A stretch of DNA of 64,000 nt. Source: Trypanosoma brucei (Eukaryota). The DNA lies in assembly GCA_000002445.1 (NCBI GenBank), contig AL929603.2:96001-160000 (forward strand), read 5' to 3'. A program made the position numbers and the translations under genes. Below the pieces are notes generated by a model that saw only the letters and a program-made list of their open reading frames with translations, was not told the DNA's origin and searched no databases. Below are positions 16,925-52,233 of the stretch, piece after piece; within the stretch, counting starts at the first letter, position 1, and the number at the start of each line of letters is the position of its first letter.

Positions 16925-16965
16925 AAAACCTCATTACATTTATCATTTCTTTTGTGCCCAAAGAC
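16925..16965 (+). promoter_or_regulatory. Polypyrimidine tract plus AG, a candidate trans-splice acceptor region upstream of the LRRP
   Basis: TCATTTCTTTTGTGCCCAAAG precedes the LRRP ORF. This is a kinetoplastid trans-splicing convention and is not verified. Confidence 0.25.
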
Positions 16966-16971
16966 TGCTGA

Positions 16972-23420: not shown

Positions 23421-23435
23421 TATATATATATATAT
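23421..23435. repeat. (TA)n microsatellite (also 24191..24207; mirrored at about 42076..42097 and 41318..41335)
   Basis: Seen in the sequence. Confidence 0.9.
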
Positions 23436-26029: not shown

Positions 26030-26517
26030 AGACACTTATTCTGGGAGAAAAGCGTCTGAGGGAACGTGAAGCAAGAGGTGATAATGTTTTCAGTTTATAT
26101 GGCTCCGTATGCAATTCAAAGTGGAGTGACATTATAATGGACAATGGAACTCAAATGCTGGGCATGAAGTTTGTTGATGGAACGCGTGCTGATGATATAA
26201 TGTGGAAAGATGAAGAAGTTAATGTCGTCCCCAAAATTGAGGAAACTTTTGAACATAAGCCGGAACGCACGGGAAGGAGGTGAAGCAACGGTTCCAACAT
26301 CTTAAATGGAGTGGTCGTACTCACAGTTTAATATTTAAATTCACAATGACATTCTCATTCAGAGAAAGGACTGGAGACTGAAATGTTGTGGAAAGAAAGC
26401 TCTGCGCTTGGCCAGCTGAGGAAACTCGAATACTAAGACACGCACCAAATCCTTACATTGTGATTGGAAACTCCAGAATCAGTAAGTCACTGGCCATCGG
26501 CTCACTTCTCCTTCACA
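26030..26517 (+). pseudogene. RHS: RHS gene 5' portion (degenerate) upstream of the ingi insertion
   Basis: The translation reads ...LYGSVCNSKWSDIIMDNGTQMLGMKFVDGTRADDIMWKDEEVNVVPKIEETFEHKPERT.... It parallels the RHS at 60384 (LYESIYNAKLSHIIIDDGTQPLGMRLVDGMPNEGLMWKDEEVNVVPEIEETLEQKPERT). A P-loop remnant reads IVIGNSRISKSLAIGSLLLHTL. The frame is interrupted by stops. Confidence 0.75.
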
Positions 26518-27674: not shown

Positions 27675-29695
27675 CCACGCGTAAGCAGATCCTGGACCGT
27701 ACCCCAAAGAAGAGATGGAGCACGCTATGCTCCAGACTTGCGGTGTCAGACCGCTGCAGTTGGCACATTGTCAAGAAGGTATATGCGCCACGACCACTAA
27801 CCACACCGGCTGTACTTGTTGATAACGCGGCCATCACGGACTACTGTCAAGCTGAGAGGTTCAGTAAACTGTACTCGTCCCGCGCAAGAAGGCACCCCGA
27901 CTCACACCCACCGGCACCAATAAAGACGATAGCGAGTGAGTTCAGTCCCATCACGATGGCTGAACTACGGAGATCGATCAAACTGCTACCGAGTGGATCC
28001 GCAGCCGGACCTGATTGCTTATACAACGAGGCACTGCAACATCTCGGTAGAACAGCGCTGAATGTTGTTCTGAGGCTATTCAATGAGAGCCTACGAACGG
28101 GAGTCGTGCCGCCTGCATGGAAGACTGGTGTTATCATCCCCATCCTGAAGGCCGGAAAAAAGGCGGAGGACCTCGATTCTTACAGGCCTGTGACGCTCAC
28201 GAGCTGTCTCTGCAAAGTCATGGAGCGCATAATTGCCGCGAGACTTAGAGACACTGTTGAGTCCCAGCTGACGCCGCAGCAATCAGGCTTTCGCCCCGGA
28301 TGCTCAACGCTCGAACAACTCCTGCACGTCCGCGCTGCCCTCTGCCGTCCCACGCACCAATCTCGTACGGGTGCTGTATTCGTTGACTACGAGAAGGCAT
28401 TTGATACAGTAGACCACGACAAAATTGCGAGGGAAATGCACAGAATGAAGGTATCATCCCACATTGTGAAGTGGTGCGTATCATTTCTGAGTAACCGAAC
28501 TGGCAGAGTGAGATTCAAGGAGAAACTCTCCAGAAGCAGAACATTTGAGCGAGGAGTGCCACAAGGAACTGTCCTTGGCCCAATCATGTTCATTATTGTC
28601 ATGAACTCGTTGAGCCAACGCCTTGCAGAGGTGCCGTTACTGCAGCACGGATTCTTTGCAGACGACCTAACGCTACTTGCGAGGCACACAGAGAGGGATG
28701 CCATCAACCACACACTACAGTGCGGTCTAAACGTGGTGTTACAGTGGTCAAAAGAGTACTTCATGTCTGTCAACGTAGCGAAAACAAAGTGCACACTCTT
28801 CGGGTGTATAGAGCGCCACCCCCTTACGTTGCAACTGGACGGCGAAAGAATAGGAGCTGACAGGACACCGAAGCTTCTAGGAGTAACATTCCAGTGTCTG
28901 CAAGGGATGGCAACACATGCGGCCGAAACGAGACGCAAGATGGACTTCCGACTACTGCAGATAGCAGCCATCTCAGCTTCTACATGGGGGCCAAGACGAC
29001 AAGTACTGAGAACTTTTTATCTAGCACTCGTACAGGCACACACCATGTATGGCATTGAGGTATGGTACTGGGACGCTTCGGAACGAAGTCGCGACCTCCT
29101 TGCATCAGCACAACACAAAGCCAGTCGCATCATAGCCGGCATACCGCATGGGACGCGCAAAGAGGACTCTCTGCTGGAAGCAAACCTCCTGCCACTCAAG
29201 ACGGCCACTCTTGTGCGCAGCATGAAATTCATGCTGATGTGTGAGTCACGAGGCGGATGTTTGCGGCGCAGTGCTGAAGAAGTATACCACAGCAAACACC
29301 CAGTCAGAGTCTTACATTCCCGCATCATGCGGTCCTACCCCCACCTCCGCATTGAGCCACGCGAGCACCCACTAGAGACATCGACGCTCCGCCACAGCTG
29401 CCGACCGATATTTCACACGCAGATAAAGCCTGTGTGCGCTGATGACCCTGACGATGTCAAAAGGGAGGCTTCCGAAAAGTGGATTGAACGACATTTTGCA
29501 CGGAGGGGGAAGGAGCCACCGCGGCGAGAGCACTACGAATTGTGGACTGATGGATCCGTGTCCCTCGGTGAGAAGACCGGGGCAGCTGCCCTGCTCTATA
29601 GAAACAACACGCTGATTTGTGCACCAAAGACCGGAGCAGGGGAACTCTCATGCAGTTACAGAGCGGAATGCGTAGCATTAGAGATAGGACTGTAA
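27668..29695 (+). CDS. ingi reverse transcriptase / RNase H ORF fragment (675 aa)
   Basis: RT motifs are present (...YRPVTLTSCLCKVMERII..., FADD). An RNase H-like C-terminal end is present. The start is offset by -1 from the upstream ORF. Confidence 0.85.
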   Translation: MVATRKQILDRTPKKRWSTLCSRLAVSDRCSWHIVKKVYAPRPLTTPAVLVDNAAITDYCQAERFSKLYSSRARRHPDSHPPAPIKTIASEFSPITMAELRRSIKLLPSGSAAGPDCLYNEALQHLGRTALNVVLRLFNESLRTGVVPPAWKTGVIIPILKAGKKAEDLDSYRPVTLTSCLCKVMERIIAARLRDTVESQLTPQQSGFRPGCSTLEQLLHVRAALCRPTHQSRTGAVFVDYEKAFDTVDHDKIAREMHRMKVSSHIVKWCVSFLSNRTGRVRFKEKLSRSRTFERGVPQGTVLGPIMFIIVMNSLSQRLAEVPLLQHGFFADDLTLLARHTERDAINHTLQCGLNVVLQWSKEYFMSVNVAKTKCTLFGCIERHPLTLQLDGERIGADRTPKLLGVTFQCLQGMATHAAETRRKMDFRLLQIAAISASTWGPRRQVLRTFYLALVQAHTMYGIEVWYWDASERSRDLLASAQHKASRIIAGIPHGTRKEDSLLEANLLPLKTATLVRSMKFMLMCESRGGCLRRSAEEVYHSKHPVRVLHSRIMRSYPHLRIEPREHPLETSTLRHSCRPIFHTQIKPVCADDPDDVKREASEKWIERHFARRGKEPPRREHYELWTDGSVSLGEKTGAAALLYRNNTLICAPKTGAGELSCSYRAECVALEIGL

Positions 29696-29740
29696 CGGCT
29701 GCTGAAATGGCTTCCGGCTTACAGAAGCACACCGAGCAGG

Positions 29741-31084
29741 TTGTCCATCTTCTCTGACTCGCTGTCAATGTTAACAGCACTGCAGGCAGGTCCACTAGCC
29801 GTAACGGACCCAATTCTGAGACGACTATGGAGGCTTCTGCTTCAAGTTCAGAGAAGGAAGGTGCGTATCCTAATTCAATTTATGTTCGGTCATTGTGATA
29901 TGAAACGGAATGAGGTTTGTGATGAAATGGCTAAAAAGGCCGCAGATTTACCACAGTTGCGAGACACATGGATCCCCGACATCATTGCTTATGCGAAGCG
30001 AGTGCTTAGGTCGGAAGAAGTCCATGAGAACACTCATAGGTTTGGTATCACTGGCAACCACTTTTCAACAAAATATAAAGAAGAACTGACGAGGGAAGAA
30101 GAAACGGCACTGGCACGCTTTCGGGTTGGGTCTTCAAGACACTATGGATGGATGTTGCGAAAGATCAACCCGAGTGTGCCTCCACAGTGCCGATGGTGCA
30201 ACCCGCAACATGCAGCGATAGGGCCAACAATACAAAAGGCCCCAACTGTTGCGACACGCACTCTTCAGAGAACCTCCGAACCGACCAAATGTACGGAATG
30301 TGATGCCACATACCAATGCCGCTCGAGTGCTGTAACGCATATGGTAAACAAACATGGCTTTGTGCGAGCTGATGCCCTCCGGAGGATCAAATACGGCGAT
30401 GCAACACCCGCAGTGGATATCCCCCCGGAGCCCCCTCCAGTGGTGGCGATCGTTCCCCTACCATCGAGCACACGAGTCCCGATGAGACCGCAGGTGCTTC
30501 ATTGTACCATCTGTGCCTCCAAATTCGCAGTGCCAGGCCGACTATTACACCACCTTAGAACAATACATGGCATAGGCAGCGGTAGTTTCCGCGTGAAAAG
30601 GGGGCGAGAGAACGAAGACTCATTGCAAGGAGATGGTAGCGCTCCAGCAGCGCCAGCCTCTCAGGATACACGGAAGCTGCCGTTTCAATGTGACCTGTGC
30701 GAGGCGAGCTTCGGTACACGTTCTTCCCTGACACTACACAAAAAATTCAAACATAAAAGCATAGTGACGGAGGACGGTACCGTGGTGTTAGTGCAATTCC
30801 CTCGTAAGCGTGCCCGTGAGGGAAACGTTGACGTCCCGGGGAAGGGCGAGGTGCAGTGTGGTGTGTGTGCCAAAAAGTGCTCAGTTGCAGGGACTCCCTC
30901 ATCCGACACTGTAAGGCTTTCCACAAAGGTGAGGAAGTCGAGCTTAAATGCAGCAAAAGCACAAAATTGTGTGCCACTGATTCCCCCCGTACAAACACAT
31001 CCATGTTGGTGTGCCCGACATGCGGAAGGCAGTGTGCTAGCAAAACTGGCCTCACCCTACATCAAAAGAAGATGCACGGTATGA
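29741..31084 (+). CDS. ingi C-terminal ORF fragment with multiple C2H2 zinc fingers
   Basis: The fingers read CTECDATYQCRSSAVTHMVNKHG, CTICASKFAVPGRLLHHLRTIHG, CDLCEASFGTRSSLTLHKKFKHK and CPTCGRQCASKTGLTLHQKKMHG. The frame continues as 30856..31452 after a frameshift. Confidence 0.8.
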   Translation: MSIFSDSLSMLTALQAGPLAVTDPILRRLWRLLLQVQRRKVRILIQFMFGHCDMKRNEVCDEMAKKAADLPQLRDTWIPDIIAYAKRVLRSEEVHENTHRFGITGNHFSTKYKEELTREEETALARFRVGSSRHYGWMLRKINPSVPPQCRWCNPQHAAIGPTIQKAPTVATRTLQRTSEPTKCTECDATYQCRSSAVTHMVNKHGFVRADALRRIKYGDATPAVDIPPEPPPVVAIVPLPSSTRVPMRPQVLHCTICASKFAVPGRLLHHLRTIHGIGSGSFRVKRGRENEDSLQGDGSAPAAPASQDTRKLPFQCDLCEASFGTRSSLTLHKKFKHKSIVTEDGTVVLVQFPRKRAREGNVDVPGKGEVQCGVCAKKCSVAGTPSSDTVRLSTKVRKSSLNAAKAQNCVPLIPPVQTHPCWCARHAEGSVLAKLASPYIKRRCTV

Positions 31085-31723
31085 AGGTAGAGCGCGCTGT
31101 AACCAGCCAACGCGGCGACTGCGAAGAAACGTCGCTGCACTTGATGAGCTGTCCCGGTTTGAAGAAGTTACGTGTCAGGTTTGCGGTAGAAGGTGAGTGT
31201 GTGCGGGATGTATGCTTCTCCAAAAGGCTGGCGCAATTTCTCATTGCGGTTGAACGGAGCCGGCCGCAGGTGAAGTCCTCACCTAAGGTAACAGTCATAC
31301 AACCCACTCTTCCTTCTGCAACTTCCCCCCTTATTGCCGAGTGTGGAGCTAGCAGGAAAAGCACCGGACGCAGGAATAGTCCAGACACCCTCAGAGACAG
31401 AGGAGGTATGCAGTCAACAAGCAACAGAAACAGAAAGAGGGGGAGAGAATAATAAACGAATAACAAAAATCAAAACAAAAGGATTGCCAATTGACATCTT
31501 TTGGAGAGTCCAGGGTGGGAGGCTTCTCGCCCCATCTGCTGTATTCCGTTCATATGCGGAAATACAACAAAAATTATAGAGAGTGTGTTAGGATGAATGA
31601 AAAAGGGAGACTCTGCCACAGTCGCCAGACCGATAGCATTTCAGGGCTCTACGGTGATGGCTGATGGCCGCGCCAGTGGGGGGAAACTCCCACGAAGGCA
31701 CGAAGAAAATTCAAAAAAAAAAA

Positions 31724-31800
31724 TTCTCCTTCACAAACTAAAGCATGATGCCAGAGTATTGCCTGTTACCGCATATTTTATAGGAGGTCATGCATGCATA
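31724..31800 (+). pseudogene. RHS: TSD (3' copy) followed by RHS continuation after the ingi
   Basis: TTCTCCTTCACA is followed by LLHKLKHDARVLPVTAYFIGG. Intact RHS reads LYKLLHYDAEELPVVAYFRG at this point. Confidence 0.75.
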
Positions 31801-32410
31801 TATATATGTATATGTATATATGTCTGTGTTGTATCTTGGAACGTTGCGCCCATATGGCAAATGGATTGGAAGACTGCTGCTGCATAAATTCATCAACCTT
31901 GGTCGCATCTATCGTACAGGAGATTCCGAAACGTATGTGTGCACGCTGCACTTTGAATCCGCATTGAGGGTGGTAACTTTCCAGTCGCGCAGAGACGTTG
32001 CACGACAACATTGTGTGAGGAGAGTCACTCATATACAGATCAGTTTTGTCTTGTGTTTTGAAGGTGATGCCGCAAGTGCTTTCGATTTTCCCAGGGTATT
32101 ATTTCCTTTTATTGACATGATAGGGTCATTGCCCGCAACCGCGGAGTGGAAACAGGAAACGATGCAGGATGTCAGCGTGTTGAACCGCCTGAGCGATATT
32201 TTCCTGAACTTCAGTAAAGCACAGCGCCTTCCAAATATCCATGAGGGAACAATCAACTCTCCACACACCATGCAACTTTACGGGTTCCCACCCATTTTCC
32301 CACTATTTGATACCTTGTTTGTTGTGGATTGCGACACAACCACCGAAGTTGAAAATCAACGAAAAATAAACGGTGGTGATGTTGCAATTCCAAACTGCTG
32401 GATCACATGA
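31790..32410 (+). CDS. Conserved 206-aa ORF, 100% identical in both arms (mirror at 37784..38404 -); possibly a remnant of an RHS 3' region
   Basis: Similarity to the RHS C-terminal region is weak (TYVCTLHFESALRVV versus TYVCVAHSESIKKRI). The ORF begins inside the (TATATG)n tract, so a genuine start is doubtful. Confidence 0.25.
   Translation: MHAYIYVYVYMSVLYLGTLRPYGKWIGRLLLHKFINLGRIYRTGDSETYVCTLHFESALRVVTFQSRRDVARQHCVRRVTHIQISFVLCFEGDAASAFDFPRVLFPFIDMIGSLPATAEWKQETMQDVSVLNRLSDIFLNFSKAQRLPNIHEGTINSPHTMQLYGFPPIFPLFDTLFVVDCDTTTEVENQRKINGGDVAIPNCWIT
31795..31830. repeat. (TATATG/TATG)n microsatellite at the RHS remnant junction (mirror at about 38375..38410)
   Basis: catatatatatgtatatgtatatatgtctgtg seen in the sequence. 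Confidence 0.85.
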
Positions 32411-34248
32411 TAACAAAACAGGAACAGCCCTTAATATGCTCGAGAATCCTGTCCTTCTAACATGTGATGCGAATAGGGATATGTTTTTGGGAAATTTTAT
32501 GAATGAATTTGGGTGGGGAGTTATTTGTGCTCAGCATGTTGCCGTCAGAAAGATGAGACGCCAACAATTGTGCAACGATACAGCGGGCAAATGAAGTGAG
32601 GAAGATCGCAAATATGTTCATTTATTTTGGGCCAACAGTATGAAACATTACCTTGTGCAATTTAATGTTAATACCGTCGCTATGTTAGCTATTGAAAATA
32701 TTGCGGGGAGGGGAAGTAACCGACATGGATGTAAATCATGAAAGAGCGGCTGTGGGAAATCAATAAAAGAGAGGAAGGAGAAGAGTAAACGGGGAAAACA
32801 TCAACAAAAGAGTGTGGAAACAAATAATCACGGCAGGTGATGTCACGGTATAACTCTGTGTTAGGAGGGTTGTGGACTCTATCAAAATTAACCTCTCGGC
32901 AGTAAGCACAGTTAACAACGAGCGTATGATCCCTTTTTAAAATTTGGTTACTTTAATTCGTTTTTTTTTATTACTTAACGATGTTAACATTAGATACGAT
33001 ATGCATTTTTTGTAGAAGCACATATGTGTTAATGAAAACATTGCAACATTGTTTACATCAGATATTAATACTTAGCTGCCTAACCGTAATTTCCTACAGA
33101 GCGTGTCGTTTACGGTTTTCATTTCTACCAGATGGATGTCACATATTGTGTTTAATATTTTACACTGAGTGATGTGTCCGAAATATTTTTTTTTCTTAAT
33201 CGTCGACGCCCCTTTCACCTTTTCATGTATTCTCCTAATTTTTCTCTACCATTTGTTACTTAAGGTGCGCACAGATACGAATGTATGAAGGTTTCTGTGC
33301 AAGAAGCCGAGGTGTCCAGTTCACTATTTATTTGATGGAAAGTCATTATTTTGAGTGTGCGATTCGTTGTACATCCACTGGCTACCGGCACAGCGTATGT
33401 TATCACTTGCCCTATCTTTCATATGATTACTCTAAAATGATTAGAGTTCAGCGGTATGAAAAGTGTAATAATACCCGAGAAGTGCAGTTCCAACTGTTGA
33501 TGGGTAATATTTATGTTTGATTGTCAGGTGGTGATTTACTAACATGAAGTATGCAGTTTATTATGATAGGCTGAGAAGGAGGGGAATGATGATGCGTTGA
33601 AGGACGTGAGGTAACTGATAGTATTATTATTATTATTGTTTTTTTTTGTTAACTGATGTATTCCATAACATTGAGGATGCAGTGGGACTTAGGGGTGAAG
33701 CACTTTGGGAACTGTATTTGTGTTTGCATGGATGAGCTTGAGCCAATAGAACCCGCTGTCGCGTATCAACAAGAGTGGAAATTAGTGGAACAGTTTTTGT
33801 ATGTTTCTTTGTATTGTGGTGAGCTTTCGTTGATTTCCCTCTTAACTTTCGTTGTTTATTGATTTTTGTTATTTGTTGTTTCATTCATTTTGGATCGTCA
33901 GAAATGTGAGGGTGCAATGTGTTTGTTTTTGGTTTTTTTCACACCGCCCACAGTTGGGATTGGTGATGCATGAAATTCATTATTTTTATATTTGGCATAT
34001 GATAACAAGGCAAGGGAAATATTTATACAGCTGCCGTATTTTGGAATTGTTTTCCTTAATACCAAATAAGGTATAATACCGTATAACACAAACAATAGTG
34101 AATAAATATTATCTCGCTTTATTACTTTTGTTATTATATTAAACTATTCGCACACTGTTATTTTCCTCATCGGTTATTTTACTTCAGTTATTTATATTTT
34201 CAGAGAAGTAAAGGAAAGGGAAGTTAAATTAAGTTAATAATAAAATGT

Positions 34249-35074
34249 ATGCCGAGAGCCAACAATCCTGCAGCTCCACGTGGAAACGATGCAAATCAAC
34301 AAGTGGCAGGTAATATTGAAGCAGCCATGAGGAGACCACGGGATGAAAATGTACCGCCTCCTCCTCCTCCTGCTGCTGCTGCTGCTCAGCCTCCACAAAT
34401 ACGGCAGAGAACTGAAGAGAGGCCCAATTGGACAATGAATAGTAAGGTGAGGGATGTGCTGCTGGAAGATGTGCCGCTGCAACGGTATGAGGTTCTGCGT
34501 AAAATGACACTGCATGATTTATGGAGTGGCAGAAACGGAAAATGTGAGGATTCCCATGTTTGTTGAAAATCCGGGAGAATATATTACGAACGCAAGAATT
34601 CTACATGACATACAGAATCTCCACAAGTTCAGACAGTACAAAAAGATTTGTGAGCGGTTGCCTGAAGTAGAAGGAAATCTCCTCTCTACCTTAATGGGAA
34701 GGGAAATTTACTACCTCAGTCAGTGGGAGGAGAAGGGAAGAGGGGAAATAAGGGAATTTGTTGGTCCCGTGGCGAGGGGAAGGTTGGATGGAGCACTGGA
34801 GGTCGCCAAAGAAGCAAGGAAACGAGCTGCCCAACCAGCCTGTGGTGCTGTCGAACTTAAAGGAGTGTATGATTCTATATACAATGCGAAATGGAGTTAT
34901 GTGATGCCGGGTTATGATGAAGAGCCACTTGGAATGAAAGTGTTTAATGGAAAACCGCAGCGCATTTGGACCGAAGCGGAGGTGGATATAACTCCTGAAC
35001 CTGCGAATGTTGATGCAGAGATTAAGAAGGGATCCAATGGTTTAGAGATTTTTGTTCTCACTTCGGAGAAGGTG
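34249..35074 (+). pseudogene. RHS: RHS gene 5' portion (about 275 codons, one frameshift near 34560), truncated at the palindrome centre after ...LEIFVLTSEKV
   Basis: The translation reads MPRANNPAAPRGNDANQQVAGNIEAAMRRPRDENVPPPPPPAAAAAQPPQIRQRTEE...GRGEIREFVGPVARGRLDGALEVAKEARKRA...GVYDSIYNAKWSYVMPGYDEEPLGMKVFNGKPQRIWTEAEVDITPEPANVDA. The 5' flank at 34150..34248 matches the flank of the RHS at 3081..3150 on the other strand. Confidence 0.85.
34356..34386. repeat. (CCT)n(GCT)n trinucleotide repeat encoding the Pro/Ala run in the RHS N-terminus; its length is polymorphic between copies
   Basis: The runs are PPPPPPAAAAAQ here, PPAAAAAAQ in the mirror copy (about 35800) and PPPPAAAAAQ in the copy at 2052..3080. 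Confidence 0.85.
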
Positions 35075-35139
35075 ATTTGCGCCCCGTACCGCTATGTGAA
35101 GCAGGAGTTCGAGCTTTGAATAGTGTTACGCCCCCCGCC
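35075..35139. other. Non-palindromic central spacer of the inverted repeat (~65 bp)
   Basis: The left arm ends at ...CACTTCGGAGAAGGT (35074). The right arm starts at ACCTTCTCCGAAGTG (35140). The intervening GATTTGCGCCCCGTACCGCTATGTGAAGCAGGAGTTCGAGCTTTGAATAGTGTTACGCCCCCCGCCA is not self-complementary. Confidence 0.8.
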
Positions 35140-35944
35140 AACCTTCTCCGAAGTGAGAACAAAAATCTCCAAACCATTGGGTCTCTCCGGCACTCGTGCA
35201 TCAACATTCGCAGGTTCAGGAGTTATATCCACCTCCGCTTCGGTCCAAATGCGCTGCGGTTTTCCATTAAACACTTTCATTCCAAGTGGCTCTTCATCAT
35301 AACCCGGCATCACATAACTCCATTTCGCATTGTATATAGAATCATACACTCCTTTAAGTTCGACAGCACCACAGGCTGGTTGGGCAGCTCGTTTCCTTGC
35401 TTCTTTGGCGACCTCCAGTGCTCCATCCAACCTTCCCCTCGCCACGGGACCAACAAATTCCCTTATTTCCCCTCTTCCCTTCTCCTCCCACTGACTGAGG
35501 TAGTAAATTTCCCTTCCCATTAAGGTAGAGAGGAGATTTCCTTCTACTTCAGGCAACCGCTCACAAATCTTTTTGTACTGTCTGAACTTGTGGAGATTCT
35601 GTATGTCATGTAGAATTCTTGCGTTCGTAATATATTCTCCCGGATTTTCAACAAACATGGGAATCCTCACATTTTCCGTTTCTGCCACTCCATAAATCAT
35701 GCAGTGTCATTTTACGCAGAACCTCATACCGTTGCAGCGGCACATCCCTCGCCTTACTATTCATCGTCCAGTTGGGCCCCTCTTCAGTTCTCTGCCGTAT
35801 TTGTGGAGGCTGAGCAGCAGCAGCAGCAGCAGGAGGCGGTACATTTTCATCCCGTGGTCTCCTCATGGCTGCTTCAATATTACCTGCCACTTGTTGATTT
35901 GCATCGTTTCCACGTGGAGCTGCAGGATTGTTGGCTCTCGGCAT
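35140..35944 (-). pseudogene. RHS: Mirror copy of the truncated RHS 5' portion (tail-to-tail with 34249..35074)
   Basis: The ORFs 35092..35700 (-) and 35648..35944 (-) are near-identical to 34514..35119 and 34249..34566. The differences are one 15-bp indel, the (CCT/GCT)n length and a small indel near ...ANVDA(RVPERPNGLEIF). Confidence 0.85.
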
Positions 35945-38458
35945 ACATTTTATTATTAACTTAATTTAACTTCCCTTTCCTTTACTTCTCTGAAAATATA
36001 AATAACTGAAGTAAAATAACCGATGAGGAAAATAACAGTGTGCGAATAGTTTAATATAATAACAAAAGTAATAAAGCGAGATAATATTTATTCACTATTG
36101 TTTGTGTTATACGGTATTATACCTTATTTGGTATTAAGGAAAACAATTCCAAAATACGGCAGCTGTATAAATATTTCCCTTGCCTTGTTATCATATGCCA
36201 AATATAAAAATAATGAATTTCATGCATCACCAATCCCAACTGTGGGCGGTGTGAAAAAAACCAAAAACAAACACATTGCACCCTCACATTTCTGACGATC
36301 CAAAATGAATGAAACAACAAATAACAAAAATCAATAAACAACGAAAGTTAAGAGGGAAATCAACGAAAGCTCACCACAATACAAAGAAACATACAAAAAC
36401 TGTTCCACTAATTTCCACTCTTGTTGATACGCGACAGCGGGTTCTATTGGCTCAAGCTCATCCATGCAAACACAAATACAGTTCCCAAAGTGCTTCACCC
36501 CTAAGTCCCACTGCATCCTCAATGTTATGGAATACATCAGTTAACAAAAAAAAAACAATAATAATAATAATACTATCAGTTACCTCACGTCCTTCAACGC
36601 ATCATCATTCCCCTCCTTCTCAGCCTATCATAATAAACTGCATACTTCATGTTAGTAAATCACCACCTGACAATCAAACATAAATATTACCCATCAACAG
36701 TTGGAACTGCACTTCTCGGGTATTATTACACTTTTCATACCGCTGAACTCTAATCATTTTAGAGTAATCATATGAAAGATAGGGCAAGTGATAACATACG
36801 CTGTGCCGGTAGCCAGTGGATGTACAACGAATCGCACACTCAAAATAATGACTTTCCATCAAATAAATAGTGAACTGGACACCTCGGCTTCTTGCACAGA
36901 AACCTTCATACATTCGTATCTGTGCGCACCTTAAGTAACAAATGGTAGAGAAAAATTAGGAGAATACATGAAAAGGTGAAAGGGGCGTCGACGATTAAGA
37001 AAAAAAAATATTTCGGACACATCACTCAGTGTAAAATATTAAACACAATATGTGACATCCATCTGGTAGAAATGAAAACCGTAAACGACACGCTCTGTAG
37101 GAAATTACGGTTAGGCAGCTAAGTATTAATATCTGATGTAAACAATGTTGCAATGTTTTCATTAACACATATGTGCTTCTACAAAAAATGCATATCGTAT
37201 CTAATGTTAACATCGTTAAGTAATAAAAAAAAACGAATTAAAGTAACCAAATTTTAAAAAGGGATCATACGCTCGTTGTTAACTGTGCTTACTGCCGAGA
37301 GGTTAATTTTGATAGAGTCCACAACCCTCCTAACACAGAGTTATACCGTGACATCACCTGCCGTGATTATTTGTTTCCACACTCTTTTGTTGATGTTTTC
37401 CCCGTTTACTCTTCTCCTTCCTCTCTTTTATTGATTTCCCACAGCCGCTCTTTCATGATTTACATCCATGTCGGTTACTTCCCCTCCCCGCAATATTTTC
37501 AATAGCTAACATAGCGACGGTATTAACATTAAATTGCACAAGGTAATGTTTCATACTGTTGGCCCAAAATAAATGAACATATTTGCGATCTTCCTCACTT
37601 CATTTGCCCGCTGTATCGTTGCACAATTGTTGGCGTCTCATCTTTCTGACGGCAACATGCTGAGCACAAATAACTCCCCACCCAAATTCATTCATAAAAT
37701 TTCTCAAAAACATATCCCTATTCGCATCACATGTTAGAAGGACAGGATTCTCGAGCATATTAAGGGCTGTTCCTGTTTTGTTATCATGTGATCCAGCAGT
37801 TTGGAATTGCAACATCACCACCGTTTATTTTTCGTTGATTTTCAACTTCGGTGGTTGTGTCGCAATCCACAACAAACAAGGTATCAAATAGTGGGAAAAT
37901 GGGTGGGAACCCGTAAAGTTGCATGGTGTGTGGAGAGTTGATTGTTCCCTCATGGATATTTGGAAGGCGCTGTGCTTTACTGAAGTTCAGGAAAATATCG
38001 CTCAGGCGGTTCAACACGCTGACATCCTGCATCGTTTCCTGTTTCCACTCCGCGGTTGCGGGCAATGACCCTATCATGTCAATAAAAGGAAATAATACCC
38101 TGGGAAAATCGAAAGCACTTGCGGCATCACCTTCAAAACACAAGACAAAACTGATCTGTATATGAGTGACTCTCCTCACACAATGTTGTCGTGCAACGTC
38201 TCTGCGCGACTGGAAAGTTACCACCCTCAATGCGGATTCAAAGTGCAGCGTGCACACATACGTTTCGGAATCTCCTGTACGATAGATGCGACCAAGGTTG
38301 ATGAATTTATGCAGCAGCAGTCTTCCAATCCATTTGCCATATGGGCGCAACGTTCCAAGATACAACACAGACATATATACATATACATATATATATGCAT
38401 GCATGACCTCCTATAAAATATGCGGTAACAGGCAATACTCTGGCATCATGCTTTAGTT

Positions 38459-38470
38459 TGTGAAGGAGAA
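38459..38470 (-). repeat. TSD TGTGAAGGAGAA (reverse complement of TTCTCCTTCACA) flanking the RIME; second copy at 38972..38983
   Basis: Seen in the sequence. It is identical to the left-arm TSD. Confidence 0.85.
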
Positions 38471-38971
38471 TTTTTTTTGAATTTTCTTCGTGCCTTCGTG
38501 GGAGTTTCCCCCCACTGGCGCGGCCATCAGCCATCACCGTAGAGCCCTGAAATGCTATCGGTCTGGCGACTGTGGCAGAGTCTCCCTTTTTCATTCATCC
38601 TAACACACTCTCTATAATTTTTGTTGTATTTCCGCATATGAACGGAATACAGCAGATGGGGCGAGAAGCCTCCCACCCTGGACTCTCCCAAAGATGCCAA
38701 TTGGCAATCCTTTTTTTTTGGAGTTCCACATCACCGGACAGCAGCATCTTAGTGCGGATGATACTGCTGATGGCACGCTGGCACGTGCCCAGGGACCGAC
38801 AAATGAAAAACGGTGTCCCAGCAAGACGCTGCTGATCCCTGTACTGTATGATGCCGTAGCCGGAGCACAGCAGTGTTCCCCATGAAAGGAACGCTGCTGG
38901 CTCTTGGCTTCCCCCGATGATACGGGGTACTGGACCCTGGCACCACGTTGAGGTGGCCGGCATCGCCAGGG
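38471..38971 (-). mobile_element. RIME (ribosomal mobile element, 501 bp: ingi 5' half joined to ingi 3' half) at the position that is paralogous to the left-arm ingi
   Basis: The 5' half is CCCTGGCGATGCCGG...GATGTGGAA. It joins directly to the 3' half ...GGATTGCCAATTGGCATCTTTGGGAGAGTCCAGGGTGGGAGGCTTCTCGCC...A8. The ORF 38612..39025 reads across the junction as ...CCCPVMWN|SKKKGLPIGIFGRVQGGRLLAPSAVFRSYAEIQQKL. Confidence 0.9.
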
Positions 38972-38983
38972 TGTGAAGGAGAA

Positions 38984-39459
38984 GTGAGCCGATGGCCAGT
39001 GACTTACTGATTCTGGAGTTTCCAATCACAATGTAAGGATTTGGTGCGTGTCTTAGTATTCGAGTTTCCTCAGCTGGCCAAGCGCAGAGCTTTCTTTCCA
39101 CAACATTTCACAGTCTCCAGTCCTTTCTCTGAATGAGAATGTCATTGTGAATTTAAATATTAAACTGTGAGTACGACCACTCCATTTAAGATGTTGGAAC
39201 CGTTGCTTCACCTCCTTCCCGTGCGTTCCGGCTTATGTTCAAAAGTTTCCTCAATTTTGGGGACGACATTAACTTCTTCATCTTTCCACATTATATCATC
39301 AGCACGCGTTCCATCAACAAACTTCATGCCCAGCATTTGAGTTCCATTGTCCATTATAATGTCACTCCACTTTGAATTGCATACGGAGCCATATAAACTG
39401 AAAACATTATCACCTCTTGCTTCACGTCCTCTCAGACGCTTTTCTCCCAGAATAAGTGT
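38984..39459 (-). pseudogene. RHS: RHS gene 5' portion (mirror of 26030..26517), upstream of the RIME
   Basis: The ORF 38595..39101 (-) begins with the RHS-derived MERKLCAWPAEETRILRHAPNPYIVIGNSRISKSLAIGSLLLHTL before entering the RIME. Confidence 0.75.
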
Positions 39460-42400
39460 CTGGTGTCCTGAAGCAAAATGTTGAGTATTGTTCTTGATTA
39501 AAATATTTGCTTTACTTTTCTAACTAATTCGGCTTCTTAGTGTTTCCTTTTAAAGGATACAAAAGCTTTATCGCAAAGGGATTCCTATACTAAAGGACGC
39601 ACATGGTTACTCAGATAGAACAGTTATAAATCTCAAATAAAGTTCAGTAACCTTTCCTTACACATTTTTTTATCCAATGAAAATATTTCCACAGTGCTCT
39701 ACTGCAGCATTGTGGCCATTAAAAAAATAGTTTTGGCGCTGCCTCAGGTATTCACTGGCATTTCCCCTCTTTTCAACGCATGTTTACAAGCAGAGGCATG
39801 CCTCATTGCTGTCACACCTTAGCGTTATTGAATCTATTTTCATACCTCCAAGGACCATACAGCATGAGATTCTATTTTCAAATACATTAATTGATCCACG
39901 AGATTTGGTATTTTATTCATTTCATCTGACTGTTGGTTTTCCTCATTCTCTGAGTTCGCAAACACCACTGAGCTAATTCCGCGCAAATGTACACATGTAA
40001 CTTCAAGGTAATATATGTTTATCACTGTTGTATTCTTTCGTATTTCTTTTGTTGGCTGCTGGTGCCCAGTAAGTTCCTATCATAAAATATGTATCATCTT
40101 ACAAGACACAGCAATAATGGTCATGATAAAGTTTCTGAATTCCCTGTATTTAATGTTGGACGCTGGTGTGAGGAATGGATTCAAAAACAAACAAACAAAT
40201 AAACAAACTGAAGCCTCCTGTTCGTAAATGAAGAGTTTGTGTTCACATCGTTGGAGAGTGTCGGCACCAGGAGATATACTTTTCTCGCTTTGCAGTGTGT
40301 GTTTCACTACAGTTTCCGTTCGTTCCGCCATATGGGAAAATAAATTGTTTTGGATATTTGAGTCTGCGCCGCCTTCCCCACTCAAAGCACCTTGCATAAT
40401 GAGTATTATTGTAGTAAATTTTGAGTTCTCATGAGGATTTCACACTTCACACGCGCAAAAAAAAATTGTTACAATGACTCGATTACTGTTGCACACATGG
40501 AAATGGTGGCTGCGATAGAAGCTTCCCTTAATTTGTGTCATTTTCGTGAGAGTTGAGTTTTAAGCAACATTGTGCCTCCTAAACCTCGATACGCATTTTA
40601 AAAAAATGAGATTAAAAAAAAGACTCACTATTTGATACAAAATGTAAGGGAACTTGGCATTTAATAATAATTATTATTATTGAACACACATTCATATGTT
40701 AATTTTTTTCCATCACCGTTAGGAACGTAATCATCACAATTTAAAGAACCACCAATACGCAAATATTTCCATACGCCACTTGACTGTCTTCGAAGCGCTG
40801 CCCAATTGGTTTTGAATGTAAGTGCAATACAAAAGAACAAAAACATTTGAGAGAAAGAATTCAGTAATAAAAAATATGGTTAAAGTTCCCCATCACCTTT
40901 CTGAAACCTTTTGAACTTTGCGCATCTGCACGCTCAAGGCAAATCAAAGTTTCTCTAACCATTGATGTTTACATTATTTCCAATCGACCATGTTTCTTGA
41001 AACAGATGTTGGAAAGAAAATACAAATAGTGATGGATGAAAACCTGAATATTAATACTGACAATAATAATGGTAATAATAATGGTAATAAAAAATAAATA
41101 GATTAATTAATTAAATTACATTCCTTCAGTGCATTGCACTTATGCAGGGATTATGACTCGTACAAACCTGTCTCATAGTTATTTATGAATTCATGACAAA
41201 CAACTCGGTAATGATGCGCCATGAAATGTTTAATCAACGAATCTTACATTCCACGTATAATACGATGCAAACCGAACAAACATCAGTCACAAAAGCGATT
41301 TGTTTAAAAATGATATATATATATATATATTTTTTTTTTTTGCGAGCGTGTAGAAGCAAATAAATATAACACTGTGCGCAGAGGATGAAGGGTACAAACA
41401 AATGAAACAACGATAAAAAAATTATTTACAAGATTAAAAGAAAGTGCCGTTTGAATAAAGAGAAATTAAACAAGAGGTGGTGACAAATCGTATGCTTTTA
41501 ATATACTTACTGCAGATATTTAGTTTGTAACGATTAGTATTATATAAACAGCAACACATGTGATGAAACTCAGGAATATATCAACTAAACCTCAGATTGT
41601 TCGACAGACAAGCAAAAAAAAAAAAGAAAAGAAGAATAATATGAAAAAAAAAACATCTGGTGTTAATGTCGCACAACATATTTCAACAGTTGATTCACAC
41701 TACAAATTTCCTATAAACATACGATTTAAATCACCACCTGCACATTCCCTTCCGCGTATCGTTGTTTTGACTTCAAACAGCTTACAAGTATAATTTGCTG
41801 ATGCCATCTTTACATAATAAAATGAAACTATTAAAGTTTATCACAGTCCGCAAATTACGGGTTTTAGGTTGCAGTCGTCGGTTGTTCTTCCCTCTGCATA
41901 ATGGTCTCTCATTAACATACAAATATCTCTCAACAAAAATATTCACATTAGAGAGATTAGGTGATGAATGATTTGAGTCAACTCCTTCCACTTGTAACTT
42001 CATCACGGCATGGTTGCGGCTCACAACAGAAGGAAGGGTGTTTTTACTCTTAGGTTGAATGATACCTGCAGTTCCAACATAATTCGATATATATATATAT
42101 ATATATATTCTTTATTTCTACTTTCTGCACTTCTCCACTTTCGTGTTGTCCATACAACAAATATCTCTTTACCCGATGGTGAATGAGATGTGGTGTGCTG
42201 TTTAGAAACTGAACTACATTTTTAGCTGAGAGTGGAAAAGCTGAAAAAGTGTTTTGGTTTGAAGAGTGAGTCAGTTGAAGCATTCAGCATTTGATTAACT
42301 CATAAAACATATAATTTATATTTAACCTTCCAATACCATCGCTCGAACAGAGCAGTTTCTTGTCATAAAGACATTAACCACATGCTAAAATTTTCCACGC

Positions 42401-44213
42401 CACCAAACCACACTTATATAAACTCGAAAAAATAAATAATAAATAAGCGGTTGCATATATCATACCACTTCTTGCAATGTAAACCGAAAATAGTGCGTCG
42501 CGGGAGTGAGCTTGAAATTAGTAAACGAAAAGATTCCTGTATCATAAAAGTCTTTCACTATTTCATGAAGTATTTCAATCTCCAACTAAACATCATGCAA
42601 AACACCTTAAAGCCACTCCACTTTCCAATATATAAAAATCCCACCAATGTTACTTTCATGTGCCATCGCAGTGCATCCTCATGCTTTCAATTTCAGTAGT
42701 TATTCACTTCCCAAGTTCCGTAAGCATTTACTGCTAATAATGTAAGCGAAACAATTTTGGAATATGATATTCAAGTGACAGTTGTTCTTCGATTTCACAT
42801 GCATCTCCCTTCAGATGCAGCGCTGCTTTTCGTCTCTTTTTTTTTTCTCAAATAAATAAATAACATTTGATATTTTACTATTTCGAATCGGTGTGGATTT
42901 GTATAACTTAAATGTGCGGCTGTCTGTAACTTATCAGTTAGCAGCAGTGTCTAATTAATTTAAGTGTGTGAGGAGGAAATCCTTTTGTTGTTGTTGTCAA
43001 ATAAAAAGTAAATTTGAAGAAATACATAATTTACCTCAGCAGTGTTTTCTGGAAAGTCATAAACATATACGGATACGGTAAGAAAAGGAAAATAAAATGA
43101 ATGAAAGGATTTGCTCTCGCCTTCAGTTCTTCTGAGGCATCATGTTGTAAGAAAGAAAATAATATTTCCCAAAACCAGTGAAATGGTTAATACACTTTCC
43201 CATGCACATGTATCACAAATGTTAATGGGTTAATGTGGTACACAACCCTTTGCTGTGCAAGGGAATTCGGATTGTATGACATCTTCACAAAAGTTTGGCC
43301 CAAATAATTCTGAAAGGAAATGTAATAAAATAAATTATGTTATTAAAAAACCAAACAAATACAACAAGTTATAATATAATATTTTAATGAAACGAGAATA
43401 TTCAATCGCACTGTTTGAGAATATAGATATACCAGTGGCAAGTGTAAAAAAGAATCATGAGACACGTAATGTGTTGTTTTATCCTCTTCCATGTAAGAAC
43501 TTGGTGGTCAAGATGCTGCTCTGATATAATTTATTGTAAAGTCACTCTGTCATTTCTTTCAGTAAAACAAATAATAATAAGAATAATGAAATATATTCAC
43601 TATACTTTAATGGTATATAAACTTCACTTCCTCATATCATTGACAGGCATACAGTACTGCAGAATGTTGAGTGCTTTTACTTTTCGGGTGTGGTTATGAG
43701 TAAAAATTAAATGTGAATGTTGTGTTTCATGTAATAACAATAAGAACGATAGAAATAGTAATAATATTAATTCAATATATATGTGTGAATGTGTAGTCAT
43801 AAAGTTAGAAGGGCATACAATATAATGATATATTCATTTGGTATGGTTGTAATATGAATGATCATAATACAATAATTACTACGCTTACAACTAAAATACA
43901 AATTTCCATTGAGAAAAAAGCTTGTCACATATACACACACGCTCACCTTCCTAACTGTTCTTTATTCTTCACAATATATGATGGGTATAACTTAGTAAAA
44001 TACGAAGCACTTAAATAACCGTAATGAAATCCTTGTATTTCTCGTATTTAAGATAGTGTAACATACAATACCATCCATGTGAATTGTTACTGGTATCTGT
44101 CCGAATAATGGTGTCTACAGTGAGCAAACTACTCGAACGGGCTGTTAAATTTAATAACGTGTTCTTAGCAATAAGTGGTTACAATTATACAAAGTGAAGC
44201 AATGGGTCACATA

Positions 44214-52208: not shown

Positions 52209-52233
52209 GGTGGGGATGGGGGCGGGGCGGGTG
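52209..52233. promoter_or_regulatory. Mirror copy of the GC-box-like island (GGTGGGGATGGGGGCGGGGCGGGTG)
   Basis: This is the right-arm counterpart of 7003..7026. Its G-rich strand is oriented toward the rightward RHS array. Confidence 0.2.

What the first reader, a model, noticed from the sequence alone, without database searches (positions are those of the whole stretch)
31790..38404. Divergence gradient along the palindrome: near-identity within ~3.5 kb of the centre, rising to 3-5% nt farther out
ORF pairs close to the centre are 100% identical at the protein level. These are 31790..32410 with 37784..38404 (206 aa), 33281..33520 with 36674..36913, and 33852..34076 with 36117..36341. Pairs 9-10 kb out differ by about 1-2 aa in 80. 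At 11-12 kb they differ by about 5 in 80. The LRRP pair (14-18 kb out) differs by about 7% aa. ORFs 18-30 kb out differ by 8-11% aa. This pattern is the signature of ongoing arm-to-arm gene conversion seeded at the palindrome centre, as known for large palindromes in other genomes. Here it would be acting on a trypanosome RHS/LRRP locus.
Basis: partly seen in the sequence, partly recalled or inferred. Interest (0 to 1): 0.6.

Follow-up and report, generated by a model that had tools for sequence, protein, structure and literature searches.

The report
Trypanosome palindrome with a homogenised core

Summary
The window is T. b. brucei TREU927 chromosome 1. It carries a ~50-kb palindrome (4520-54711) around a 67-nt unique spacer (35074-35140). 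Divergence between the arms rises in steps with distance from the spacer:
- 0.27% at 0.15-4.3 kb
- 1.7% at 4.3-7.3 kb
- 4.4% at 7.3-8.8 kb
- 9.7% at 8.8-10.6 kb

Beyond that it is a trendless mosaic of 0.7-20%, averaging about 5.5%.

The T. equiperdum orthologue of the left arm adds evidence from another lineage. Inside ~6.5-6.9 kb the two TREU927 arms group together against it (86 versus 26 sites). Outside, the left arm groups with its orthologue (335 versus 34; Fisher 3e-43). So arm-to-arm homogenisation happened after the lineages split and only in the inner arms.

Selection does not explain this. The identical core is AT-rich spacer, RHS pseudogene remnants and a retroelement.

"Seeded at the centre" remains an inference:
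- The innermost 100 bp is diverged.
- An isolated 450-bp converted patch lies 18 kb out.
- Part of the outer divergence comes from exchange with other LRRP paralogues.

This is a new example of a known process. Interest is moderate.

The parts
4520..9878 (.). Left arm, outer block. It pairs with 49364-54711 and is mostly non-coding and AT-rich.
   Evidence: 92.9% identity over 5383 columns; 4.5-6.5% substitutions, with a 20% patch and a 0.67% patch.
5576..6025 (.). Isolated near-identical patch far from the centre. It pairs with 53215-53664 and looks like a short distal arm-to-arm conversion tract.
   Evidence: 3 substitutions in 450 positions; the third unit, L002, differs by 6.0% and 5.8% from the two arms here, so the identity is not conservation.
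9879..16152 (.). 6.3-kb block present only in the left arm. It contains adenylate-cyclase (ESAG4-like) fragments.
   Evidence: Guanylate_cyc hit for ORF 14449-14958; 8-nt microhomology AACACAAA at both junctions; present in the T. equiperdum left-arm orthologue, absent from L002.
16153..26517 (+). Left arm, middle block. It holds LRRP gene 16972-21318 (XP_846398.1) and, near 26388-26517, the P-loop part of an RHS pseudogene.
23092..26063 (.). Intermediate-identity zone of the left arm (1.73%). It pairs with 39428-42435. The switch of tree topology lies at L ~23,480-23,854 / R ~41,668-42,040.
   Evidence: segmentation. (site-pattern switch, cumulative maximum at 6528 bp from the spacer).
26518..31723 (+). 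Full-length ingi retrotransposon at the RHS hot spot. It is flanked by the 12-bp target-site duplication TTCTCCTTCACA (26506-26517 and 31724-31735). Its 4705-bp core, 26766-31470, has no counterpart in the right arm.
   Evidence: endonuclease and reverse-transcriptase domains..
31724..34362 (.). Near-identical core of the left arm. It has 1 substitution and one 1-bp indel against 35831-38470. Content: about 20 RHS codons, then AT-rich non-coding sequence, then the start of a second RHS.
   Evidence: list of all differences. (translations). (ORF pairs nucleotide-identical).
34249..35073 (+). 5' fragment of an RHS gene (DUF7578 plus RHS_N) reading towards the centre. It is cut off at ...SEKG. 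Its mirror copy lies at about 35141-35944 on the minus strand.
   Evidence: RHS_N positions 1-69 of 127. (alignment with intact RHS copies)..
35018..35044 (.). Cluster of 7 substitutions and 2 indels next to the spacer. Here the right arm matches another RHS copy in the window and the left arm is the odd one out.
35074..35140 (.). 67-nt non-palindromic spacer of unknown origin, at the centre of symmetry.
   Evidence: unique in the window and in the fetched loci; self-complementarity 18 of 67, p 0.49.
35141..38470 (.). Inner right arm, the mirror of 31724-35073.
38471..38971 (-). 501-bp RIME at the same RHS hot-spot site as the left-arm ingi. It has the same target-site duplication (38459-38470 and 38972-38983).
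38972..49380 (-). Right arm, middle block, with LRRP gene 44214-48560 (XP_846402.1).
   Evidence: (identical to P0001).
49364..54711 (.). Right arm, outer block. The palindrome ends at 54711.

Best explanation
**What it is.** The window is the RHS/LRRP region of T. b. brucei TREU927 chromosome 1. An old inverted duplication of an RHS-LRRP unit forms a ~50-kb palindrome. Its genes point towards the centre, so the centre is a convergent strand-switch.

**What happened.** After the TREU927 lineage separated from the T. equiperdum lineage, homologous recombination between the two arms copied sequence from one arm to the other. This happened in at least two nested, multi-kilobase tracts that both run up to the centre-proximal end.
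- The older tract reaches about 6.5-7.3 kb from the spacer. It now shows 1.7% divergence.
- The younger tract reaches about 4.3 kb. It now shows 0.27%.
- The outer arms have not been homogenised since the split, apart from short isolated patches.

**Inferred, not shown.**
- Lesions arise preferentially at or near the centre. Possible causes are hairpin formation at the short-spacer palindrome, or conflict and termination at the convergent strand-switch.
- These lesions are repaired by RAD51-type recombination using the other arm as template.
- This gives a polarity of conversion that falls off with distance.
- The diverged 67-nt spacer and the adjacent cluster are a stabilising scar at the centre.
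For: **Structure and identity steps**
-.

**Origin of the window**
- Both LRRPs and RHS5a are exact TREU927 chromosome 1 proteins.

**Cross-lineage test with the T. equiperdum left-arm orthologue** (L001/L003/L004; 98.2% to window 15140-27603)

| Zone (distance from spacer) | L=R, differs from Teq | L=Teq, differs from R | L alone differs |
|---|---|---|---|
| 1.7-4.3 kb | 21 | 3 | 3 |
| 1.7-6.5 kb | 86 | 26 | - |
| 6.5-14.2 kb | 34 | 335 | - |

- For the 1.7-4.3 kb zone the binomial p is 2.8e-4.
- The Fisher test on inner versus outer counts gives 3e-43.
- With L002 as a fourth sequence, the LR|TO to LT|RO split counts are 21:7 inside and 6:143 outside, p 3e-16.

**Not selection**
- The identical core is non-coding or pseudogene.
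- The intact LRRP pair has dN/dS 0.58. Its dS ranges from 0.01 to 0.16 along the gene.

**Not a mirrored assembly**
- The arms differ by ingi versus RIME, by poly(A) length and by a few indels inside the near-identical zone.
- The intermediate zone is 1.7% diverged yet still groups L with R.

**Tract size**
- Tract lengths of 2-9 kb are known from Y palindromes (PMC3723533).
Against: - The innermost 100 bp (7%) and the spacer are the least similar part. This is not what strict seeding at the centre predicts.
- A 450-bp converted patch lies 18 kb out. Low-dS patches lie inside LRRP. So conversion is not confined to the centre.
- The gradient rests on only 2-3 nested events.
- The 9.7% peak at 8.8-10.6 kb and 48 of the 129 LRRP amino-acid differences involve states shared with other paralogues. 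Part of the rise is therefore ectopic exchange and not elapsed time.
- A 4.7-kb ingi/RIME heterology sits inside the youngest tract. It needs an extra event or split tracts to explain.
- Only one arm is available from the second lineage. T. equiperdum lacks the centre and the right arm.
Confidence: 0.6

Rival explanations
1. One-off rebuilding rather than a recurrent process. After the strain split, one or two large repair events rebuilt the centre. Candidates are break-induced replication, a template switch or fold-back from a break in one arm. The event copied the inner 4-7 kb of one arm over the other and created the present centre and its 67-nt filler. The gradient would then simply date those events.
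For: - The profile is a staircase with sharp steps, not a smooth decline.
- The spacer is unique filler-like sequence, and the arms end inside an RHS gene at slightly different bases.
- T. equiperdum has a different structure from the position equivalent to window 33379 onwards. So this region does rearrange.
Against: - Two different identity levels (0.27% and 1.73%) need at least two events with the same inner end. That is already recurrence.
- Patchy unconverted islands lie inside the 4.3-6.6 kb zone. They look like heteroduplex repair, not wholesale copying.
- The ingi/RIME difference lies inside the youngest block.
Confidence: 0.2
2. No centre effect. Conversion between the arms and with outside paralogues happens anywhere. 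The apparent gradient arises because the outer arms carry LRRP and RHS family sequence that is repeatedly overwritten from other loci, which inflates their divergence. The latest arm-to-arm tracts happen by chance to be central. Alternatively they are favoured only because partner sequences lie physically closer there.
For: - 48 of 129 LRRP differences have both states present in other paralogues. Differences cluster in runs.
- dS varies 16-fold along LRRP.
- A distal 450-bp tract exists.
- There is no trend beyond 8.5 kb.
Against: - In the outer arms the left arm stays close to its T. equiperdum orthologue. Most 500-bp windows from 7 to 14 kb differ by 0-1.8%. So outer divergence mostly predates the split and is not being generated now on the left arm.
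- The inner arms also consist of multicopy RHS, RIME and ingi sequence, yet they are identical.
- The two largest and youngest tracts are both centre-anchored.
Confidence: 0.12
3. Assembly artefact. The identical inner 3.6 kb was collapsed or mirrored during assembly of the reference chromosome. Short-spacer palindromes are hard to clone.
For: - There is only one substitution in 2.86 kb.
- I could not obtain reads or a second assembly of the centre or the right arm. T. equiperdum lacks them.
Against: - The arms differ inside the zone: ingi versus RIME, 11 versus 8 A residues, a 1-bp indel, microsatellite indels and a 7-substitution cluster.
- The spacer is not an adaptor, and the arms continue into diverged sequence on both sides.
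- The 1.7% zone cannot be a collapse, yet it shows the same L+R grouping.
- The left inner arm is confirmed up to 33379 by an independent T. equiperdum assembly.
Confidence: 0.05
4. Purifying selection keeps the central sequences alike.
For: None found. It was considered only because identical ORF pairs were reported.
Against: - The ORFs are low-complexity or spurious. The region is AT-rich spacer, RHS remnants and a retroelement.
- The T. equiperdum orthologue differs from both arms by ~0.8% in the same stretch.
- The intact LRRP genes are far more diverged.
Confidence: 0.01

Closest known systems
Large sex-chromosome palindromes (human and ape Y P1-P8, X palindromes) kept alike by arm-to-arm gene conversion (PMC3723533, PMC8600007)
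   Same: Both have inverted arms of tens of kb around a spacer, and multi-kilobase conversion tracts. In both, the arms within a genome are more alike than the orthologous arms between lineages. Here that holds in the inner ~6.5-6.9 kb.
   Different: Y palindromes are ~99.97% identical along the whole arm. Here only the inner 4.3 kb exceeds 99.7% and the outer arms are ~94.5%. The spacer is 67 nt rather than kilobases. The setting is mitotic and diploid in a protist. No position-dependent gradient is described in the two Y-palindrome papers I searched.
Long inverted repeats IR1-IR7 of T. brucei TREU927, sources of siRNA (Tschudi et al. 2012, PMC3447711)
   Same: Same genome. The arms are 0.4-10 kb and "essentially identical". 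The authors already wondered what maintains them. Convergent transcription units and ingi/RHS are also siRNA sources.
   Different: No chromosome 1 repeat appears in their table. This one has long diverged outer arms and consists of RHS, ingi and LRRP family sequence. siRNA output was not testable here.
Conserved inverted repeats around paralogous gene pairs in Caenorhabditis (PMC1803023)
   Same: The arms are more similar within a species than between species. This was interpreted as gene conversion maintaining the palindrome.
   Different: Those are 0.1-2 kb arms around functional gene pairs conserved for ~100 million years. Here the homogenised part is non-coding or pseudogenic, and the structure is missing in a close relative.
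Polarity gradients of gene conversion around a double-strand-break hot spot in yeast, and stimulation of recombination by short-spacer inverted repeats (from my own knowledge, not checked here)
   Same: Both show a frequency of co-conversion that falls with distance from an initiation site, and nested tracts sharing one end.
   Different: In yeast the break site is measured. Here it is only inferred from tract geometry.
RHS pseudogenes with ingi or RIME at the hot spot (summarised in PMC7563717)
   Same: Each arm carries an RHS pseudogene interrupted a few codons after the P-loop by an ingi or a RIME, with a 12-bp target-site duplication.
   Different: The two arms carry different elements, a 5.2-kb ingi and a 0.5-kb RIME, at one and the same insertion site.

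Membership tests
Palindrome homogenised by arm-to-arm gene conversion | Two inverted arms flanking a short unique spacer | tested here: met
   the arms span 4520-35073 and 35141-54711, with a 67-nt spacer.
Palindrome homogenised by arm-to-arm gene conversion | Arms within one genome are closer to each other than an arm is to its orthologue in another lineage (concerted evolution). Tested for the inner arms. | tested here: met
   at 1.7-6.5 kb from the spacer the L=R sites number 86 against 26 L=Teq sites. The four-sequence split is 21:7.
Palindrome homogenised by arm-to-arm gene conversion | Concerted evolution along the whole arm, with arm identity above 99% | tested here: not met
   beyond ~6.9 kb the arms differ by ~5.5%, and the left arm groups with its T. 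equiperdum orthologue (335 versus 34 sites).
Palindrome homogenised by arm-to-arm gene conversion | Both arms compared in two or more lineages | not testable with these tools
   T. equiperdum lacks the centre and the right arm. No other T. brucei genome DNA could be fetched.
Palindrome homogenised by arm-to-arm gene conversion | GC-biased fixation of converted sites | not tested
   There are too few polarisable sites in the inner arms.
RHS pseudogene with retroelement at the hot spot | RHS N-terminal and P-loop coding sequence immediately upstream of the element | tested here: met
   ...NPYIVIGNSRISKSLAIGSLLLHT, followed directly by ingi sequence. RHS_N in the neighbouring fragments. PMC7563717 gives the position of the hot spot.
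RHS pseudogene with retroelement at the hot spot | Element with an ingi/RIME 5' end, a poly(A) tail and a 12-bp target-site duplication | tested here: met
   TTCTCCTTCACA occurs at 26506, 31724, 38459 and 38972.
T. brucei siRNA-producing long inverted repeats (IR1-IR7) | Essentially identical arms | tested here: inconclusive
   True for the inner 3.6-4.3 kb only.
T. brucei siRNA-producing long inverted repeats (IR1-IR7) | Listed among the published repeats | tested here: not met
   Table 3 lists repeats on chromosomes 2, 7, 8, 10 and 11, and none on chromosome 1.
T. brucei siRNA-producing long inverted repeats (IR1-IR7) | Small RNAs map to the arms and the spacer | not testable with these tools
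   No small-RNA data are available here.
Convergent strand-switch region of T. brucei | Coding units on both sides point towards the site | tested here: met
   LRRP and RHS fragments lie on the plus strand left of 35107 and on the minus strand right of it. The flanking RHS genes point away from the palindrome at both ends.
Convergent strand-switch region of T. brucei | Termination marks (base J, H3.V) and overlapping transcripts | not testable with these tools
   There is only literature context. Multiple close strand-switch regions on chromosome 1 give large base J peaks (PMC2896530).
Fold-back or collapsed-repeat assembly artefact | Arms identical throughout, with no arm-specific features and no genuine spacer | tested here: not met

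The most novel reading that the evidence does not exclude
The homogenised 7-kb core is not just a by-product of repair. It could be a maintained hairpin-RNA locus. Convergent read-through across a near-perfect palindrome made of RHS, RIME and ingi-end sequence would give a long double-stranded RNA. That RNA would feed the ingi/RHS siRNA pool. Arm identity near the centre would then be kept by conversion plus selection for a perfect stem. A related reading is that the centre is a programmed fragile site of the RHS region.
Probability: 0.12. Interest if true: 0.65.

Novelty: new member of a known kind. Interest (0 to 1): 0.42.

Why it matters
**A record of recombination in T. brucei.** Gene conversion is the engine of antigenic variation in T. 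brucei, yet natural tract lengths and polarity outside VSG loci are poorly documented. This palindrome preserves them in the reference genome:
- two nested tracts of about 4.3 and 6.5-7.3 kb
- patchy unconverted islands
- a short distal tract
- a datable boundary where concerted evolution gives way to ordinary orthology

**Testable predictions.** It gives a concrete site to test whether short-spacer palindromes or convergent strand-switches are break-prone in trypanosomes. It also allows a test of whether they feed the RNAi pathway.

**Practical point.** About 7.2 kb around the centre (31471-38720) cannot be mapped uniquely with short reads. Variant and expression calls there are unreliable.

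Tried and rejected
**Fetching the locus from other genomes**
- Exact look-ups of the window LRRPs, of TREU927 proteins and of the 206-aa ORF found nothing on record.
I got round this with ids from the listing of cluster members.

**Walking along T. equiperdum chromosome 1 to find its centre and right arm**
- The left arm stops at the position equivalent to window 33379.
- It is followed by an inverted ingi, then VSG-like sequence, then core genes.
- No two-arm comparison was therefore possible.

**Key papers not held**
- Hall et al. 2003 (chromosome I) and Bringaud et al. 2002 (RHS) are not in the library.
- Three literature searches found no description of this palindrome.

**Origin of the spacer**
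- There is no other copy in the window or in the fetched loci.
- It is not self-complementary beyond chance.

**RNA genes and arrays at the centre**
- No tRNA, no Rfam family and no tandem array.
- This is therefore not the centromeric LRRP/rRNA domain of chromosome 1 described in PMC1868937.

**Rejected explanations**
- Purifying selection.
- The idea that the palindrome centre sits at the RHS retroelement hot spot. It lies about 60 codons upstream of it.

**Canonical RIME junction**
- No other RIME was available in the held sequences for comparison.


Full report
**1. What the window is**

The 1448-aa ORFs at 16972-21318 (+) and 44214-48560 (-) are leucine-rich repeat proteins. Both are exact matches to annotated proteins of Trypanosoma brucei brucei TREU927 on the 1,064,672-bp chromosome 1 record: XP_846398.1 and XP_846402.1. 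The RHS gene at 60384-62411 is RHS5a, XP_846406.1. The window therefore lies in the RHS/LRRP region of the reference chromosome 1. It has no tRNA, no Rfam match and no large tandem array. So it is not the centromeric LRRP/rRNA domain described in PMC1868937.

**2. Anatomy of the palindrome**

Self-comparison gives one palindrome from 4520 to 54711. The paired blocks are:
- L 4520-9878 with R 54711-49364 (92.9%)
- L 16153-25636 with R 49380-39894 (95.4%)
- L 25637-26765 with R 39854-38724 (98.2%)
- 31471-38720, its own reverse complement

Two blocks exist only in the left arm.
- **9879-16152 (6.3 kb).** It contains adenylate-cyclase fragments and is bounded by the 8-nt microhomology AACACAAA.
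- **26766-31470 (4705 bp).** This is the ingi-specific core of a full ingi retrotransposon, 26518-31723.

The right arm has a 501-bp RIME (38471-38971) at the same site as the ingi. Both elements are flanked by the same 12-bp target-site duplication, TTCTCCTTCACA. The site lies just after the P-loop of an RHS pseudogene (...GNSRISKSLAIGSLLLHT|). This is the known RHS hot spot (PMC7563717).

The arms end inside the N-terminal domain of a second RHS copy, at ...SEKG. They are separated by a 67-nt spacer, 35074-35140. The spacer occurs nowhere else in the held sequences and is not self-complementary beyond chance.

Genes point towards the centre from both sides, and the flanking RHS genes point away from the palindrome. 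The centre is therefore a convergent strand-switch flanked by two divergent ones. This agrees with the remark that chromosome 1 has several closely spaced strand-switch regions (PMC2896530).

**3. The identity profile**

I measured distance along the right arm, which lacks the two insertions. There are 746 substitutions in 19,492 aligned positions.

| Distance from spacer | Divergence |
|---|---|
| 1-151 bp | 4.7% |
| 0.15-4.29 kb | 0.27% (11 of 4130) |
| 4.29-7.30 kb | 1.73% |
| 7.30-8.84 kb | 4.42% |
| 8.84-10.56 kb | 9.65% |
| 10.56-14.25 kb | 3.32% |
| 14.25-17.66 kb | 6.46% |
| 17.67-17.86 kb | 20% |
| 17.86-18.07 kb | 6.5% |
| 18.08-18.52 kb | 0.67% |
| 18.53-19.57 kb | 4.49% |

- Between 31724 and 34362 there is one substitution and one single-base indel.
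- Divergence correlates with distance inside 10.5 kb (rho 0.86, p 6e-7). It does not beyond 8.5 kb (rho -0.09).
- The inner deficits are far beyond chance (6e-84 and 1e-25).

The shape is a staircase followed by a mosaic plateau. Within LRRP the trend actually runs the other way, with the centre-proximal 3' end more diverged.

**4. Evidence from a second lineage**

The LRRP cluster contained T. brucei equiperdum proteins. From them I walked along chromosome 1 of assembly GCA_003543875.1.
- Record 66,443-91,843 is colinear with the TREU927 left arm from window 8049 to 33379. It includes the 6.3-kb block and the ingi, at about 97-98% identity. This is the left-arm orthologue.
- A second unit 42 kb upstream (L002) is in direct orientation and roughly equidistant from both arms. 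It serves as a fourth sequence.

Site patterns for TREU927-L, TREU927-R and Teq-L:

| Zone (distance from spacer) | L=R, differs from Teq | L=Teq, differs from R | L alone differs |
|---|---|---|---|
| 1.7-4.3 kb | 21 | 3 | 3 |
| 1.7-6.5 kb | 86 | 26 | - |
| 6.5-14.2 kb | 34 | 335 | - |

- The Fisher test on the inner and outer counts gives 3e-43.
- With L002 added, the informative split (L,R | Teq,L002) beats (L,Teq | R,L002) by 21:7 inside 6.9 kb. It loses 6:143 outside (p 3e-16).
- The cumulative switch point lies 6.5-6.9 kb from the spacer, at L ~23,480-23,854 and R ~41,668-42,040.

The outer duplication is therefore older than the TREU927/T. equiperdum split and has evolved independently since then. 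The inner arms have been homogenised after that split. This is the signature of concerted evolution that defines arm-to-arm conversion in other palindromes (PMC1803023, PMC3723533). Here it is confined to the inner quarter of the arms.

The direction of copying is only tentatively readable.
- At 5.5-6.5 kb T. equiperdum differs from both arms by 4-5%, which is paralogue level. This suggests copying from right to left, or a T. equiperdum-specific replacement.
- At 1.7-4.3 kb it differs by ~0.8%, which is orthologue level.

**5. What does not explain the pattern**

*Selection.*
- The identical core is AT-rich non-coding DNA, about 20 RHS codons, a retroelement and a truncated RHS. The ORFs used as markers translate to low-complexity nonsense.
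- The orthologue differs from both arms in this stretch.
- The intact LRRP genes differ by 5.6% at nucleotide level, with dN/dS 0.58.

*A mirrored or collapsed assembly.*
- The arms differ within the near-identical zone by ingi versus RIME, 11 versus 8 A residues, indels and a 7-substitution cluster.
- The 1.7% zone cannot be a collapse, yet it groups L with R.
- The left inner arm is independently present in T. equiperdum.
- Reads were not available, so the centre and the inner right arm rest on the reference assembly alone.

**6. Limits on "seeded at the centre"**

- The innermost ~100 bp carries a 27-bp cluster of 7 substitutions. There the right arm matches another RHS copy and the left arm is aberrant. 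The spacer is unrelated between the arms.
- A 450-bp patch 18 kb out (5576-6025 with 53215-53664) is 99.3% identical between the arms, while L002 is 6% away from both. This is a short conversion tract far from the centre.
- Inside LRRP, dS ranges from 0.01 to 0.16 per 150 codons.
- 48 of the 129 amino-acid differences have both states present in LRRP paralogues on other chromosomes or strains, often in runs. Exchange with outside paralogues therefore contributes to the outer divergence, including the 9.7% peak.
- The gradient proper rests on two or three nested tracts.

The geometry favours initiation near the centre, because two large recent tracts share the centre-proximal end. It fits what is known about short-spacer inverted repeats and about conversion polarity around break sites (my own knowledge). 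But a proximity effect, or a few one-off rebuilding events, are not excluded. The Y-palindrome papers I searched describe multi-kilobase tracts (mean minimum 2.07 kb, maximum above 9 kb). They describe no positional gradient.

**7. Mechanism proposed**

*Shown:*
- an old inverted duplication
- post-split homogenisation limited to about 6.5-7.3 kb, in at least two steps
- patchy unconverted islands in the 4.3-6.6 kb zone

*Inferred:*
- Lesions arise at or near the centre, from hairpin formation at a 67-nt-spacer palindrome or from conflict at the convergent strand-switch.
- They are repaired by homologous recombination using the other arm as template.
- Tracts extend outwards for variable distances.
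- The asymmetric spacer and the adjacent cluster are a stabilising scar.

The ingi/RIME heterology inside the youngest tract needs one more step. Either the tracts stopped at the heterology on both sides, or an outside copy replaced the element after homogenisation. The three substitutions within 32 bp of the core boundary (31476, 31494, 31502) fit the second option.

**8. Comparison with what is known, and verdict**

- Tschudi et al. listed seven long inverted repeats with essentially identical arms in this same genome and speculated about their maintenance. None is on chromosome 1.
- This locus works like the sex-chromosome palindromes. It fails the criterion of whole-arm identity, because only its core is homogenised.
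- It is a new, well-resolved member of a known kind, and not a new kind.
- The most novel reading not excluded is that the core is a maintained hairpin-RNA source for ingi/RHS siRNAs. Such siRNAs do arise from inverted repeats and convergent units (PMC3447711, PMC4721609). Nothing here tests that reading.

Noticed in passing
window 26518-31723 (left) and 38471-38971 (right): The two arms carry different retroelements at one insertion site, with the identical 12-bp target-site duplication TTCTCCTTCACA. The left arm has a full 5.2-kb ingi and the right arm a 0.5-kb RIME. The T. equiperdum left arm also has the ingi. This implies that an ingi was turned into a RIME in place, or the reverse, either by an internal deletion or by replacement from another copy elsewhere in the genome.
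   Followed up: partly
L004 16900-24971 and L005 1-9777 (T. equiperdum CM010672.1, record about 91.8-106.8 kb): In T. equiperdum the left arm stops at the position equivalent to window 33379. It abuts a full inverted ingi that has no target-site duplication. This is followed by a VSG-like C-terminal ORF, a 273-aa gene and an RNA polymerase Rpb2-like gene. The centre, the right arm and the right-flank RHS array are all missing. It looks like an ingi-mediated deletion or rearrangement 1.7 kb from the palindrome centre.
   Followed up: partly
window 9879-16152: A 6.3-kb left-only block with adenylate-cyclase (ESAG4-like) fragments is bounded by 8-nt microhomology (AACACAAA). It is present in the T. 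equiperdum left-arm orthologue and absent from the right arm and from L002. This points to a microhomology-mediated deletion or insertion older than the strain split.
   Followed up: partly
window 5576-6025 and 53215-53664: A 450-bp patch is 99.3% identical between the arms although it lies 18 kb from the centre. The third unit, L002, is 6% diverged from both arms there, so this is a short distal conversion tract and not a conserved element.
   Followed up: yes
window 6241-6437 and 52805-52998: A 185-bp segment differs by 20% between the arms, far above its surroundings. The cause was not examined. It could be replacement from another locus or alignment of unrelated sequence.
   Followed up: no
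window 35018-35044 versus 35170-35196: There are seven substitutions in 27 bp right next to the spacer. The right arm matches the RHS copy at about 55990-56020 and the left arm has a different stretch. This looks like a short patch imported from another RHS copy.
   Followed up: partly
window 16972-21318 and 44214-48560: The two LRRP genes are mosaics. 48 of their 129 amino-acid differences have both states present in LRRP paralogues on chromosome 2, in T. b. gambiense or in other entries. dS varies from 0.01 to 0.16 along the gene.
   Followed up: yes
window 1-3102, minus strand: One uninterrupted 1034-codon reading frame runs from an RHS N-terminus straight into ingi sequence and off the left edge of the window. 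This is an in-frame RHS-ingi fusion at the hot spot.
   Followed up: no
L002 (T. equiperdum CM010672.1 24298-47603): A third RHS-LRRP unit lies in direct orientation 42 kb upstream of the left-arm orthologue. It is about equally distant from both TREU927 arms (92-94%). Its homology to the left flank continues 1.6 kb beyond the outer end of the palindrome, so the palindrome arms are copies of a larger repeated unit.
   Followed up: partly
window 34363-34467 versus 35746-35830: A CCT/GCT microsatellite and a short internal repeat account for the only indels (6 and about 15 nt) and for 5 of the 11 substitutions in the otherwise identical inner arms. This looks like replication slippage after homogenisation.
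   Followed up: no
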